A DNA stretch of 16,870 nucleotides. Source: Bdellovibrionota bacterium. GTDB taxonomy: Bacteria > Bdellovibrionota_C > UBA2361 > JBIKWN01. Shown here piece by piece: positions 1-6,000 of this stretch; the first letter of the stretch is position 1, and every line of letters begins with the position of its first letter. Made by a program: the position numbers. The DNA lies in contig JBIKWN010000055.1 of assembly GCA_044356295.1 (NCBI GenBank), positions 1-16,870 on the forward strand, written 5' to 3'.

Positions 1-3000
1 TTCGCGACCTTCGCGTTACAAAAAAGAATTAATGCGCAGCACCCATACTAACCTGATACATCTCTTCCATAAGAGGAATATTTCGACGCCAGTTAGGATC
101 CATTTTATCCCAAAGGATTTCAGTAGGCTGCTCTTGAACATGTAGCTCTTGAATCTTTGCTTGAGTAACAATCAGATCTGCTTTTACATCCCAAGGTTGA
201 AGAGGAAATGCTTCGGGTGTTACCTGTGTATCATGAACAATAACCGCAACAGGAGTCTTAACAGAAGTAAGTCCCATTTTTTGCCACATGATCCATTCAG
301 AATCAAACCATCCACAACCTTTTCCACCACGGCCACCGTGAGCGCTACTTACAAAAAGCGCACCAGTAATCATAAAATCAATATTCCCAGCAGCTCTCAC
401 TGCATCAAGTGTAGTAAGAGGTTTTCCAAAACGCTCAAACCCATCAAGTGTTGCAGAGAATTCTTCTTGTCCGGCGGGAACCATATCTCGAGTTAATAAA
501 AGAGCCCCACGACGAATGCCGTGAGTTGTCATAACGACTTCTTTATTTTGTTCAATGGCTCGTTGTCTTAATAATTCAGTACTTCTGTCAGGAGTGATAA
601 AGACACGTTTTGAATTGATCCATGTAGGGTGATTACAAAGAAGTTCAGTAGCTTTTTCAAAGCCAATAAAATTAGGAATAAATTCTGCAAGATCGAGATG
701 AAATACAGCATCAGGTATTAAAAGATTTTTTTCAATTAATGTCTTTGCAACATGCTCGCGAATAACATGTTTTGCACTATCTACATCATCAGTTGCTCTT
801 ATAAATGCCACTTTTGAAATCCTTCAAAAATAAATAAAAATTAAACAGCTTTTTTAGTTAGCTTTGCTCTTAGTTCATTTAAGAATGGTACATCTCTGTA
901 TTGGTCTGCCTGGACTAAGTCCCACGCAACACCTGTTGGTTGTGGATATGGTGTATGAGTTTCGATAATTTCATTTGGAGTAACTATCCAGTGAAGCGCT
1001 GAGTCATGCTCAAGCATAATAAGCTTTTCATTCTCAACAACTTGTACATCATGAACAGTAGTAACAATCGGGGCATGTTCCGGAATAGTGCCAACTTCTC
1101 TAAAAATCCCAAGCTCTAAATCAGCAAATCCACCACCTTTACCGGTTCGTCCACCTTCTCGAGTCACTGCAACACACCCAACAACGCAAACATCCATAGG
1201 GAGCATTTCGTCGAACTGAACGCGTTTACCATGTTTGAGCGCACCTGATGAGACTGCAGCTTCTTCGAAAGATACCCCGTTTTTTTTGAGTTCTTCAGGA
1301 TCTAGGAGTAAAAAAGGAAAATCTTGAACTAGTTCAGGTACCGGTGTGTAAACTAACTTACCTTCTTGCAGCGCTTTAAGCCGGACAGGTATTTGAGGAG
1401 CGTCAGGATTACACTTAACAACTTTAGCGCTCTTCCAAAAAGGAAGCGTTGCAAGTTTTTCAGCGGCGGTATGGGCACCAAAAAAGTTGGGTATAGCGCT
1501 CCAAATCGGCTCTATTCCAGCTTTTGAGGTTTCTAGAGCAGACCAAACTTCTCTTCGAAGGGTATCTTTATCGGTATTTCTTCCTTTCCATCGCTCATTT
1601 GTCATGTGCTTTCCTCGATTTTTATATACAGCAGCGTAAGAGTAGCACAATCGAGAACGCTACCCAAAAGGAGATAGAAAGAAATTATTTGGGTAAAAAC
1701 AAGAGAATTATCCGAATAGTGCCCTCGAGAACTTGACTAGCTAGGTTAAGAAAATAAACTAGGTTTGATTTTCTCTAACTTATTAAAAAAATGCAGACAT
1801 CTTTTAATACTCTTACTTCTTCAGAGGTATATCGCCTTTCTTTTCCTAATAAAGACAATAACTTACCGGATCTTACCGGTTCAGCAGGTGGGTACTTTAA
1901 AGATTGGTATAAATCATCAGTAGAACAAAAATCTCCTAAATTAACTCATGAACAACAACATCTTGTTGCTACAGAGCTCTGTGTTTCAATCGTTGAGCTA
2001 CTACGTGCTAAGGGCATTGAGGCGTATATCTCTCTTGTTCCTGTGCGTACTGCTTTTTCGAAAGATCTCTTTGATGTGCGACCTATGGTCATTATAGATC
2101 CTAAGCGTGGTGAACATCATTATAACATGCAAGCAAAGAAAGTTTGGGAAGACGGTAATACTTTCATTTCTGTCGATCCACTATCCTTTGTTCGTGATTC
2201 TGGTGCAAAAATTCGCTCCCAGAGTTACAAAAGTCCATTACGTGTAGCTACAATACCAGCAAGAGTATTAATCGATCGAGAATTTGGCGATGAATCGCTT
2301 CCATTAGAAGTTTATGAACTCCATACGAAAAAACTTACGAAATCAAAGGAAGATGGAAGTGCAGTTGAGGTAAATTCACGATATGGATATCTATCATCGG
2401 ATGTTGTTTATCCTCCATTTCAAGCCAAAGGAGATATTGGTAAATTAAATAGCTTTTTAACTGACCCAGAATTTGCCTCAAAGATTTCCCCCTGGGGTGC
2501 CGAGACTCTTTTAAATCAACGACCGATATCAGGTACAACTCAATTTGATGCTGTTTCTGAATTTGAGTTCGAAGGTAAAACTTGGTTTAAATATCTATTT
2601 CATGACACTCAAACTAAAGAACATACGTTTGCCCTCGTTAGGGGTGATATTGCCTCAAATAAAGATGTTTATACTCGGGTACACTCTTCATGTGTTACTA
2701 GTGAAACTTTAGGAGCGCTTGATTGTGATTGTAGAGATCAGTTGCGAAGAGCAATGGAGATCATTAATGAAAAAGATTCCGGAGTAATCTTTTACTGCGT
2801 TCAAGAAGGTAGAGGGGCTGGATATGCACCTAAAGGAAGAGATAGAAGTGCTGTGCAAGCGACAGGACATCAAGTAGACGATCTGTATGAAACCTATGAT
2901 AAGATGGGATTAAAAGGAGATTTAAGAGATTACCGCGGCGTTAAAGATATTCTTCATATGTTTGGTTTTGATAACTCTCCAGATAGCCCATCTTTAACAC

Positions 3001-6000
3001 TTATTTCGAATAATCAAACAAAACTTGCTGCACTTGCTCAAATGGGCGTAAATGTTAGTGGTCTTCATAAAGTTCCTAAGATGAGAGCTAACCCTTATAA
3101 TACAGATTATCTTGGGGCAAAGAAGTCTAATGCAGATCATGACGTTGAGCATTATGGTGATATCGGTATTACCGTAGAATTGCCTCCTATGATGACTATC
3201 CCTGCTGGCGTAGCGAATACTCATAGTGTCTCTTTTGATTTAATCGCCCAATATTCTTTACCTACGACGACATATCCTGGTCGTACAGTGATGAGCAAAG
3301 AAGAATATCAAGCACTTCTTTTAGAAGTACAAGAGAGAGGAAGTCCAGAGCTTTACAAATCGATTTTAGATGTTGAGGAATTAAATTGCTCACGTGTAGC
3401 GGTAAAACGATCAAGAGATCTTCTTAACCGTCATCGTGATACCCATGGTGTAGATTCGATCTATTCTGCTTTAGCTACAGCTGACTGGCAGTCTTTAAAA
3501 ATCATAGAAGACAAAGATTACAAAAGAACATACGCAGTGCTTGAGTACGGAGATATTAGCGAAGATATCAACCCAATGGTGTACTGCCATTTTGAATCAC
3601 TCGATGCTCGAATCTTTATTGATCCTGAAAGCAGAAAGACATATCGCCAAGCATGGAAGCAAATTATACAAAATGGACATGGCTATATGATCGTAGCTAT
3701 TAATGATGGACAAGGATCGACTATCAATTCTGAAACCATAATTCAGATGAGTCATTTAAAGGAAAAAATGGGACTTTCTCCTTATGATACTTCTCGTTCG
3801 CAAGTGGTCTTCGAAAAGACTCGACAAGAGTGCTTGCAAACTTCAGCCCATATAGCCCAAGCATTCGGATTGGGGGCTCGAGAGTTACAACTACTCGTTT
3901 CAGAAGGTCAAGATCCTGAAGCCAGTGCTTCGATATTTGAAGATATAGGTCTTACAGTTTCATCAATGACTAAAGTTGAGGATTTGGTCGATGTGTCGTG
4001 ATATGGCAAATCTTAGCGGTGATCACGCACTTGCATGGCGTGGGCTTTCAGCAGATCCAAAACTGCGTACCCTTAGTAATCAAGATCCACTAGGGCATGA
4101 ACTTATGCGCACTCGAATTGATGCGTTGCCTGAGTTATTGAGTTCATACCGAGATCAGGATTCATCACTTTCGGTTTTATCTGCTGGTACTATTGAGATA
4201 GTAGGTGTTGGGACATCTCAAGCTCATTCAGAATTTCTTTCATATTTATTAGAGAAGTATGTTCGCAGAGCATCAAAGGTGATTGATCCACTAGAGATCA
4301 TGCAACATGCTCATGGGGAAGTTTCGAAGGTAAGAGATAATCTCGTAGTATTTTCACAAGGATTATCACCCAATACATATGCTTCAATCGCTGCGTTAAG
4401 CACTGCAAGAAAAGGAATTCTTTTCACTGCTGCTTCTCAAGAAGACGTATCACCAGAGTCTGAAAAAGCAAAAATACTAGAACAAATTTCAAAAAGTGGC
4501 ATTGAAACAGTTCTTTTCCCAATAGCAAACGAATACGAATTGCTGCCTCGATTTATTGGCCCGCTTCTTGGATTCGTAGCTTGTTATAAATTTGTTAAGG
4601 AAGGGCTTTGCAACGAACAAACAAATGAACTTCGCTCACTAGATCTAGATAATTTTTTTAGTAGTTCTAGGAACTGCGCTGAAAAGATACGTGAACAATT
4701 ATCTGATGTTGATTTCGATAAAGCTCCAATCCATCTCGTATCAACGGTACCGTTCCACCGAACAGCATTTAATCTACAAGAAAAGATTCGTGAATGTTTG
4801 CTTCCAGCTGGTGGAGTTTTTCTTTCAAGTATAACGGGATATGATCATGGGCGATTCCAACATAATCTTGTCAATAATGGTGTTGAATTTATTCTTACGA
4901 GAGTTGAACGAGATGGGGTTGAAGGAGAGCTTGTTGAAAATAGACATACCCAATCTAAACAGGCTGGTCTAAATACAATTACAATTGAATCACCATATTC
5001 ACGTGATATTTCAGTAATGTGGTTTGAAATGGTATTTAATTACTTGATGCTTGATCTTGTTAAAGAAAGACAGATGAACTTAGTTGAGTGGCCTGGAAAA
5101 GAGCTTGAGGCTCTTGGTAATTATAGATTAACAGGCCTATAAGATTTTTCATGAGTCAGTCAATTTATATCAATAGAGTAACAGTTATTGACTGTGCAAG
5201 GTTGAATCCTGAAAGTGGTGAATTTGTAGGAGATAGTTTTAATCTTCATACACTAATTAGTGGGGATGCAAACAGTAAAGAACAAGTCGTAGTAGATTTT
5301 TCATCTGGTAAAAAATTAATCAAATCAGCCATAGATGGCCATGTATTTCATCAAGAAAGTTCTGGTCTAGAAGATAACTCAAAAGAGAATGGTTACGACC
5401 ATAAAACGTGGATTCCAAGCGATCTTATAGATCACTATTCAGAGCAAGGTAGATATATAGAGCTCCAAGGACCTAAGGGCTTCCGAATGTCAGCACCTTC
5501 AAATGCAGTAAAGATTCTACCGCAAAAAGTTCTAGAAGATCTTGAAAGAGGTTCAACAGAAGAACTTCAGAAACATCTAAAGGGTTTTCTAGAGGCAACA
5601 ATTCCTGGATTTTCTTTTGAAGTATTTTTAGATCGAGTTCCCTATCTAGATTACGCTTCACATCTTTTTGGCGAAGTGTACAACACTGTAGGATTTCAGT
5701 ATCTCCATGGATTAAAACAATCAACCTCGTTTGGATGTCAAAATATATTACATGGTCACGGTTCTGTTGTTTCAAGTGATGACCAAGAAGCTGCGATACA
5801 GATTGCAAGGTATCTTGACGGTGCATATCTGTATGAAACTAACTCTAAAACGCCTCATTATGGAACTTTTGCCTATCAAACTCTCGATAGAGGAGCGTTT
5901 AACTTAAAGGTTTCAGAAGACCAGGCTGTAAAGTTAATCGATATTGGCGGCGAGCCTACCATAGAAAACCTCAGTCAACATGTCGCAGAGGCGTTGCAGA

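What a model noticed while it worked through the whole genome (the two positions that open the first line are those of the whole stretch)
1791..5142. Tandem GTP-cyclohydrolase-II protein paired with a GlmS/FrlB-like double-SIS protein: an undescribed two-gene module, pr [...]
Beside a normal RibBA, g01108 carries two GCH II-fold domains (first with the CxDC zinc site, second degenerate) and is followed by g01109, an unannotated protein with the fold of the GlmS isomerase / FraB deglycase. A second copy of each lies at C71:22619-24106 and C70:144135-145235. The pair is a conserved operon in Verrucomicrobia and some UBA2361, suggesting a pathway that opens a purine nucleotide and then isomerises or deglycates the ribosylamine product.
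Evidence so far: 327 full-length relatives of g01680 at E<=1e-40; 111 of the top 120 keep CDCDC in domain 1 and a conserved R-x-[QH]-SES motif in domain 2; g01108 aligns to the family over 406 columns, prob 100; model matches E. coli RibA and UTP cyclohydrolase. The partner lies within 4 kb, nearly always directly downstream, in 51 of 80 genome loci and next to it in 4 of 5 class loci. Partner model pLDDT 88.7, top Foldseek hits GlmS C-terminal/NagB-II/FraB, E 1e-10, TM about 0.6; Pfam SIS weak in 2 of 7 homologues. Neighbours here are folate-cycloligase-like and PTPS-like genes. Paper search 0 hits.
(Added by a program. Inside this text positions count along the whole contig: contig position 1 is position 1 of the stretch shown here. 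"Call 12" and the like, gene names such as g00115 and contig names such as C1 are that model's own, and its searches are not shown. The text may have been shortened before it was handed on; [...] marks where a part breaks off. The agent that wrote the report below was given it as the finding of a first reader that could run no searches.)

Follow-up and report, generated by a model that had tools for sequence, protein, structure and literature searches.

The report
Undescribed purine ring-opening enzyme pair
Two neighbouring genes encode an uncharacterised enzyme pair, also found fused into one protein in giant viruses and a protist, that most likely cuts open guanine nucleotides and then acts on their sugar, pointing to an unknown way of breaking purines down without oxygen-type chemistry.

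Summary
Observation confirmed. 1791-4001 encodes two GTP-cyclohydrolase-II (GCH II) domains behind an unnoticed ~235-aa N-terminal extension. 4003-5142 encodes a GlmS/FrlB-fold double-SIS protein. The pair is one functional unit: adjacent in 52 of 80 GTDB loci and fused in 7 of 9 giant-virus loci and in the jakobid Andalucia. The family keeps the zinc site but lacks RibA's Tyr105. Three clades each sit with a different amide- or formyl-handling enzyme: creatininase fused to SIS, amidases, or a 5-formyl-THF-cycloligase paralogue. In 61 Opitutaceae, SIS carriers mostly have creatininase (16/18 vs 12/43) and mostly lack xanthine dehydrogenase (2/18 vs 17/43). Best reading (about 0.5): hydrolytic, nucleotide-level purine breakdown, GTP to formamidopyrimidine nucleotide to deglycation, a purine counterpart of yeast URC. 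It is not a general FolE substitute, since 9 of 10 carriers tested have FolE or FolE2. This genome is the exception: it lacks both and places a PTPS-like gene directly behind the pair, so local use for pterin synthesis is a live rival (0.25). No activity is shown. The scan noted this module before on other DNA (e1-2164127).

The parts
1791..4001 (+). Tandem GCH II-family protein (736 aa): N-terminal extension, zinc-bearing domain 1, degenerate domain 2
1791..2501 (+). N-terminal extension (about residues 1-237), seen only in a small subfamily (P0005, P0066); weak transglutaminase-like fold hint, TM 0.4 or less, no family assignable
2532..3140 (+). GCH II domain 1: R296-H298-S299, Zn ligands C301/C312/C314, Q338-E-G-R341, D377/R379 kept; RibA Tyr105 absent; Thr114 equivalent also changed in this copy
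3483..3980 (+). GCH II domain 2 core: no Zn ligands; in this copy the nucleotide-binding Arg residues that the family keeps are lost too
4003..5142 (+). Double-SIS protein of GlmS-isomerase/FrlB fold; S72, S118-Q119-G120, K261, E264, H282 kept
5151..6065 (+). Tandem PTPS/QueD-like protein, 8 bp behind the SIS gene; found in 1 of 124 class genomes; phage relatives follow folE/folE2
841..1650 (-). 5-formyl-THF cycloligase paralogue (PF01812; far below TIGR02727 cut-off; taken as COG0212-like by inference), divergent; conserved neighbour of the tandem GCH gene in this class
29..811 (-). Second, more divergent cycloligase paralogue (29% identical to the first)

Best explanation
The pair is the core of a hydrolytic, nucleotide-level purine breakdown route, a purine counterpart of the yeast URC uracil pathway. 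Step 1 (inferred from context): purine bases or nucleosides are imported and salvaged to nucleotides. Step 2 (fold and zinc site shown; chemistry inferred): domain 1 opens the imidazole ring of GTP or a close analogue and releases pyrophosphate. Lacking RibA's Tyr105, it probably stops at the formylated product (FAPy nucleotide, GCH III-like). Domain 2 lacks zinc and acts as the built-in dimer partner and possibly as a nucleotide-binding or pyrophosphate-releasing site. Step 3 (inferred): a creatininase-family or other amide hydrolase removes the formyl group. Step 4 (fold and catalytic residues shown; reaction inferred): the SIS enzyme binds the ribose phosphate, opens the sugar ring and, through imine/enaminol chemistry as in FrlB, frees the aminopyrimidine and a pentose 5-phosphate. 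The order of steps 3 and 4 is not determined. In this genome the functions of the tandem protein appear split between two paralogues: the window copy has zinc but a dead domain 2, and the C71 copy has lost the zinc site but keeps domain 2.
For: One unit: SIS found in 57 of 80 GTDB loci, directly behind in 52; 9 loci cut by a contig end, 14 without it. GCH+SIS on one chain in 32 of the 179 proteins then held, in 7 of 9 giant-virus loci and in Andalucia godoyi. The family is one clade apart from RibA (SH-aLRT 100, quick tree). Purine context: a purine transport or salvage gene in 42 of 80 loci and an amide hydrolase in 57 of 80; IMPDH-family genes near 2 of 9 and PRPP synthetase near 2 of 9 viral loci. 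Formylated product: the Tyr position reads Arg in 206 and Cys in 37 of 254 sequences and Tyr in only 3. SIS is fused to creatininase in a GC-rich clade (P0088; L164, L181, L182, L186, L189). In 61 Opitutaceae, creatininase is present in 16 of 18 SIS carriers against 12 of 43 non-carriers (Fisher p 1e-5). XdhB is present in 2 of 18 against 17 of 43 (p 0.036; among permease-bearing genomes 1 of 9 against 16 of 28, p 0.023) (kin not independent). Creatininase-family deformylases of this intermediate are known (PMC9478397, passages). SIS Glu and His are invariant in 39 of 39 sequences; FrlB mechanism from PMC10285752 (passages). Zinc is needed for ring opening but not for pyrophosphate release (PMC10366380, passages).
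Against: No activity shown. This genome lacks the purine context: of the neighbour queries only HPRT, IMPDH, PRPP synthetase and distant amidases hit; no NCS2 permease, deaminases, creatininase or formamidase. Creatininase is absent from all 5 class genomes that carry the pair. 8 of 13 class carriers of the tandem GCH show no SIS, four of them over 90% complete, and one genome has an SIS alone, so the pairing is not obligate. The 80 GTDB loci are the best 80 of 221 and nearly all Opitutae, so the counts are phylogenetically lumped. The NCS2 permease does not track the SIS at genome level (9 of 18 vs 28 of 43, p 0.39). The Glu-His spacing is 17-18 residues, not the 16 reported for GlmS/FrlB. 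The link between tyrosine loss and a formylated product is recalled from Streptomyces SCO6655 work that I could not retrieve. Why viruses would carry a catabolic enzyme is unexplained.
Confidence: 0.5

Rival explanations
1. FolE bypass, at least at this locus. The GCH (or the genome's RibBA) makes DARP, the SIS performs the Amadori rearrangement, the product cyclises to 7,8-dihydroneopterin monophosphate, and the PTPS-like enzyme behind it feeds folate or 7-deazapurine synthesis. This works like Chlamydia RibA+TrpF. It can be true here while the catabolic reading holds for the family.
For: This genome (93.6% complete) has FolB, FolK, FolP and QueC but no FolE or FolE2 hit. The sister genome's PTPS-folE-SDR-queE block is missing from the contiguous syntenic stretch on C70. 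The PTPS-like gene lies 8 bp behind the SIS gene, and its phage relatives directly follow folE/folE2 in 4 of 16 loci examined (of 33 found; 46 of 125 flanking ORFs scanned). Precedent: PMC4161248 (passages). The window GCH is a long-branch subfamily, as co-option would predict.
Against: 4 of 5 class pair carriers and 5 of 5 Verrucomicrobia tandem-GCH carriers tested have FolE or FolE2. 16 class genomes have FolB without FolE/FolE2 and only this one has the pair, so the hole is common and needs no module. The PTPS-like gene is beside the pair in no other locus held. No QueE hit. A retained formyl group would block ring closure, and no creatininase was found here.
Confidence: 0.25
2. Metabolite damage control. 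The tandem GCH removes oxidatively ring-opened or otherwise damaged purine triphosphates (domain 2 as a pyrophosphatase), and the SIS frees the base and ribose phosphate. The cycloligase paralogue could re-close the formamidopyrimidine to a purine with ATP for salvage by HPRT.
For: Domain 2 keeps at least 6 of 8 scored nucleotide-site residues in 191 of 209 sequences where it aligned, while lacking zinc ligands. Three genomes of this genus keep a copy with no zinc site but an intact domain 2. The cycloligase paralogue is adjacent in 7 of 13 class carriers versus present in 3 of 111 non-carriers (p 2e-6). A sanitising role would suit replicating giant viruses. RibA's activity on 8-oxo-dGTP and the RibA-fused N-glycosidase COG3236 are recalled, not retrieved.
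Against: It does not explain the transporters, deaminases and amidases in Opitutae loci or the anti-correlation with XdhB. COG0212 is reported as thiamin-associated with unknown function (PMC4120688, passages). The ring-closing reaction is my inference from chemical analogy only.
Confidence: 0.15
3. First steps of an unknown specialised biosynthesis (pteridine, azapteridine or aminopyrimidine pigment or cofactor) from GTP.
For: GCH II paralogues start such pathways (recalled). In the GC-rich clade a cytochrome c gene lies upstream in 19 of 76 metagenome loci. A 2OG-Fe(II) oxygenase precedes the second viral copy in 2 of 9 loci.
Against: No tailoring enzyme, exporter or regulator is shared across clades.
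Confidence: 0.1

Closest known systems
GTP cyclohydrolase II (RibA/RibBA; PDB 2bz0)
   Same: Fold (Z 20, rmsd 1.6), three-Cys zinc site, the Arg-His-Ser, Glu-Gly-Arg and Asp-x-Arg motifs in domain 1.
   Different: Tandem duplication; Tyr105 absent; scores below every NCBIfam RibA cut-off; separate clade; present beside a canonical RibBA; partnered with an SIS protein.
Yeast URC pathway / UTP cyclohydrolase (PDB 7eev, 7ej3)
   Same: A GCH II homologue opens a base at the nucleotide level and a second enzyme strips the ribosyl group (URC4 on ribosylurea; PMC7530994, passages). Structural match Z 15.8.
   Different: Purine rather than uracil context; the deglycosylating partner is a double-SIS protein, not DUF1688; only E 1.8e-6 to PRK07198, far below cut-off.
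GlmS isomerase domain / NagB-II / FrlB and FraB deglycases
   Same: Double-SIS fold (Z 19-30), phosphate-binding Ser loop, invariant Glu and His-Gly.
   Different: 10-16% identity; Pfam SIS mostly not reached; Glu-His spacing 17-18 instead of 16; family-specific invariant Arg38, Arg183, Gln286, Tyr374; no glutaminase domain and no sugar-kinase or PTS context.
Chlamydia RibA + TrpF FolE bypass
   Same: GCH II product plus an Amadori-type isomerase gives dihydroneopterin monophosphate (PMC4161248, passages).
   Different: Different isomerase fold, a dedicated GCH paralogue, and most carriers keep FolE or FolE2.
Archaeal GCH III + ArfB; rhizobial BrbF
   Same: Formylated intermediate handed to a creatininase-family deformylase (PMC9478397, passages; that paper postulates an undiscovered bacterial GCH III).
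   Different: Those feed riboflavin synthesis; here RibBA is intact and an SIS enzyme follows.

Membership tests
GTP cyclohydrolase II (RibA) | GCH II fold | tested here: met
   Foldseek E 1.6e-11, TM 0.91 by target; Z 20.0, rmsd 1.6, 168 aligned
GTP cyclohydrolase II (RibA) | Three zinc-binding Cys and catalytic Arg128 | tested here: met
   C301/C312/C314 and R379 align to RibA; three Cys in 250 of 254 family sequences
GTP cyclohydrolase II (RibA) | Tyr105 (its role in deformylation is recalled) | tested here: not met
   Tyr in 3 of 254 at the aligned column; the neighbouring column is Met in 225; the genome's RibBA keeps it
GTP cyclohydrolase II (RibA) | NCBIfam equivalog cut-offs | tested here: not met
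   TIGR00505 97 bits vs 206; PRK00393 126 vs 148
GTP cyclohydrolase II (RibA) | Converts GTP to DARP, formate and pyrophosphate | not testable with these tools
   needs assay
UTP cyclohydrolase (URC1/UrcA) | PRK07198 score and linkage to URC4/UPRT | tested here: not met
   27 bits vs cut-off 403; DUF1688 and UPRT seen near 1 locus only (L108), and that genome has a separate weaker GCH II hit beside them
GlmS-type double-SIS isomerases/deglycases | Double-SIS fold | tested here: met
   Z 29.6-18.8 over 270-324 residues; Foldseek E about 1e-10
GlmS-type double-SIS isomerases/deglycases | Catalytic Glu and His 16 residues apart | tested here: inconclusive
   E264 and H282 invariant in 39 of 39 but 17-18 apart; equivalence rests on motif position (low-probability hhalign to the genome's GlmS), with no residue-level superposition
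FrlB/FraB fructosamine deglycases | Sequence membership and fructosamine kinase/PTS context | tested here: not met
   profile search of PDB sequences gives no FrlB/FraB hit at E<=1; no such neighbours among clusters scanned
FolE-bypass (Chlamydia type) | Carriers lack FolE/FolE2 but keep FolB/K/P | tested here: not met
   met in this genome only; 9 of 10 carriers tested have FolE or FolE2
COG0212 (for 841-1650) | Membership in the COG0212 clade of PF01812 | not tested
   only PF01812 hit and failure of the TIGR02727 cut-off; label inferred

The most novel reading that the evidence does not exclude
A previously unknown hydrolytic purine-dismantling pathway that runs through GTP and a formamidopyrimidine nucleotide, is used by bacteria in place of xanthine dehydrogenase, was condensed into a single three-part enzyme in giant viruses and a jakobid protist, and has been redirected in this genome into a new FolE-independent pterin route.
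Probability: 0.35. Interest if true: 0.88.

Novelty: new variant of a known kind. Interest (0 to 1): 0.72.

Why it matters
If correct, it adds a route of purine degradation that needs neither molybdenum enzymes nor uricase. It assigns a function to two enzyme families now mislabelled RibBA or left unannotated, and supplies a candidate for the bacterial GCH III activity that the BrbF work postulates. It also identifies an unreported nucleotide-metabolism gene of giant viruses, and suggests a substrate class (formamidopyrimidines) for the orphan cycloligase paralogue. Each step is testable with purified proteins and GTP.

Tried and rejected
General FolE replacement: rejected. PTPS-like gene as a conserved member of the module: rejected, 1 of 124 class genomes and no other held locus. 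Glu53-to-Ser as a family-diagnostic change: dropped, because some canonical RibA sequences have it too and 14 family members keep Glu. NCS2 permease co-occurrence at genome level: not significant. Complex prediction of an Opitutae GCH-SIS pair, folded without alignments: no verdict. Expression: no RNA holder listed. N-terminal extension: no feature hit, only TM<=0.4 structure hits, and low model confidence over about half of it; it was not folded alone. Profile comparison of the SIS family with this genome's GlmS halves was not significant. The careful tree did not finish; the quick tree is used. Ten paper searches found no description of the tandem family, the SIS partner or the viral fusion. 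In one search only 15 of 828 listings were seen, none holding the GCH II term. The library lacks most subscription journals. No supplementary files were read; gene tables in giant-virus papers may list the gene as ribA.
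Full report
Observation. The window is contig C54 of its genome. It carries a 736-aa ORF at 1791-4001, a 379-aa ORF at 4003-5142 and a 304-aa ORF at 5151-6065, packed 1 and 8 bp apart on the + strand, with two PF01812 genes divergent upstream. 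GC content of the genes matches the genome (0.38-0.39). One contig from a possible source run spans 1-7148, and a contig from a second study bridges the GCH-SIS junction.

The GCH protein. Residues 248-450 are a GCH II domain (Z 20.0 to 2bz0) with three zinc cysteines and the catalytic arginine. Profile comparison of the family's two halves shows an internal duplication (probability 99.5, 158 columns). Among 254 distinct sequences that reach both ends of the profile, 250 keep three Cys in domain 1. Of the 209 with an alignable domain 2, 191 keep at least 6 of 8 scored residues there, but none of the zinc motif. A review states that zinc is needed for ring opening but not for pyrophosphate release (PMC10366380, passages), so domain 2 may be more than a scaffold; this is inference. 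RibA's Tyr105 is absent from the family whichever of two adjacent columns is taken. From memory, a Tyr-to-Met change makes a Streptomyces paralogue stop at the formylated product; my search did not retrieve that paper. The window copy is atypical: about 235 extra N-terminal residues of no assignable family, a dead domain 2, and changes near the base pocket. The C71 copy and its orthologues in two sister genomes show the reverse, with zinc lost and domain 2 intact, which looks like complementary degeneration. A quick tree separates the family from RibA with full support and puts the window copy on a long branch with P0005 and P0066.

The partner. Its model (pLDDT 91) matches double-SIS enzymes over nearly the whole chain, best Lmo0035, GFAT and GlmS (Z 28.6-29.6), then FrlB (21.3) and FraB (18.8). 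Sequence methods barely see this. The Ser-rich phosphate loop, a Lys-x-x-Glu and a His-Gly are conserved, Glu and His in 39 of 39 sequences. In FrlB and GlmS a Glu base and His acid drive isomerisation through an enaminol and, in FrlB, hydrolysis of the imine (PMC10285752, passages). The spacing here is 17-18 rather than 16, and I could not superpose at residue level.

One unit across domains of life. In the best 80 of 221 GTDB hits, the SIS gene is present in 57 loci and directly behind in 52; 9 loci end too soon and 14 lack it. Of 179 proteins held, 32 carry both parts on one chain. Seven of 9 giant-virus loci encode the fusion, several with a second stand-alone tandem GCH next to it, among TFIIB, TFIIS and topoisomerase genes. 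The jakobid Andalucia godoyi has it too. Viral and jakobid fusions group together with modest support (84). The pairing is not obligate: in this class 13 of 124 genomes have the GCH, 6 have the SIS, and 5 have both, always adjacent.

Context. In Verrucomicrobia, 42 of 80 loci hold a purine permease, HPRT, adenosine or adenine deaminase, nucleoside permease or AMP nucleosidase, and 57 of 80 hold an amide hydrolase. In a GC-rich clade from metagenomes the SIS is fused to creatininase, a family that includes deformylases of the GCH intermediate (PMC9478397, passages). In this class the conserved neighbour is instead the cycloligase paralogue: adjacent in 7 of 13 carriers, present in 3 of 111 others. 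In a sample of 61 Opitutaceae, SIS carriers have creatininase in 16 of 18 versus 12 of 43, and XdhB in 2 of 18 versus 17 of 43; the permease shows no association. These genomes are related, so the p values overstate.

Mechanism. Taken together I favour nucleotide-level purine breakdown: GTP is opened to a formamidopyrimidine nucleotide, deformylated, and the ribose phosphate is removed by FrlB-like chemistry. The logic parallels yeast URC, where URC1 and URC6 make ribosylurea and URC4 frees urea (PMC7530994, passages). Shown here: folds, residues, linkage and co-occurrence. Inferred: every reaction. Against: this genome has HPRT but none of the permease, deaminase, creatininase or formamidase queries.

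The pterin rival. Nine of 10 carriers tested have FolE or FolE2, and 16 class genomes have FolB without either, only this one with the pair. The family is therefore not a FolE substitute. This genome is special, though. It has FolB, FolK, FolP and QueC but no FolE, FolE2 or QueE hit, and the sister genome's folE block is absent from the contiguous syntenic stretch. The gene behind the pair belongs to a tandem PTPS family that follows folE or folE2 in 4 of 16 phage loci examined. With Chlamydia RibA+TrpF as precedent (PMC4161248, passages), local co-option is plausible (0.25).

Novelty. Ten searches of the held library found no description. Of six papers I read passages only (PMC4120688, PMC9478397, PMC10366380, PMC10285752, PMC4161248, PMC7530994); the rest I saw as listings, and no supplements. 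The scan had noted the module in a Verrucomicrobium (e1-2164127) with a similar reading. A word search of earlier findings for the giant-virus fusion returned only an unrelated RibA-RibB fusion. I rate it a new variant of a known kind: known chemistries in a new, widely distributed combination, with function untested. Interest 0.72.

Noticed in passing
window 6124-8421 (+): 765-aa ORF with no significant family; a weak cytidine-deaminase-like hit at residues 448-534 (E 0.063). It follows the PTPS-like gene by 58 bp and could be a fourth nucleotide-acting gene.
   Followed up: no
window 8418-10529 (-): 703-aa ORF with only a sub-cut-off DUF6532 hit; no paralogue in the genome.
   Followed up: no
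window 10598-16632 (-): Run of genes that read like an aromatic amino-acid operon (DAHP synthase, AroE-AroK fusion, AroA, AroC, PheA-like); named from the translations by recall, not scanned.
   Followed up: no
L114:836-2413 (-): A second, unrelated tandem GCH II protein (degenerate first domain, zinc-bearing second, also without the tyrosine) directly behind the family gene in G100.
   Followed up: partly
L108:141-2303: DUF1688 (URC4-like) and uracil phosphoribosyltransferase about 5 kb from the tandem GCH gene in G067, with a URC1-like GCH II hit just upstream: a bacterial URC cluster.
   Followed up: partly
L084, L086, L088, L089: Giant-virus loci carry two copies in tandem, one fused to SIS and one stand-alone; in L084 and L085 a 2OG-Fe(II) oxygenase precedes the stand-alone copy.
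   Followed up: partly
L158, L164-L192 (19 loci): A cytochrome c-domain gene lies upstream of the GCH gene throughout the GC-rich clade; unexplained.
   Followed up: no
class-wide: 16 of 124 class genomes have FolB but neither FolE nor FolE2, many over 90% complete: a common unexplained hole in pterin supply.
   Followed up: partly
L201:1486-2769 (G000:C23): A RibBX-like protein with a zinc-less GCH II domain, a further GCH II-fold gene in this genome.
   Followed up: no
P0144, P0146: About 990-aa proteins with three GCH II domains.
   Followed up: no
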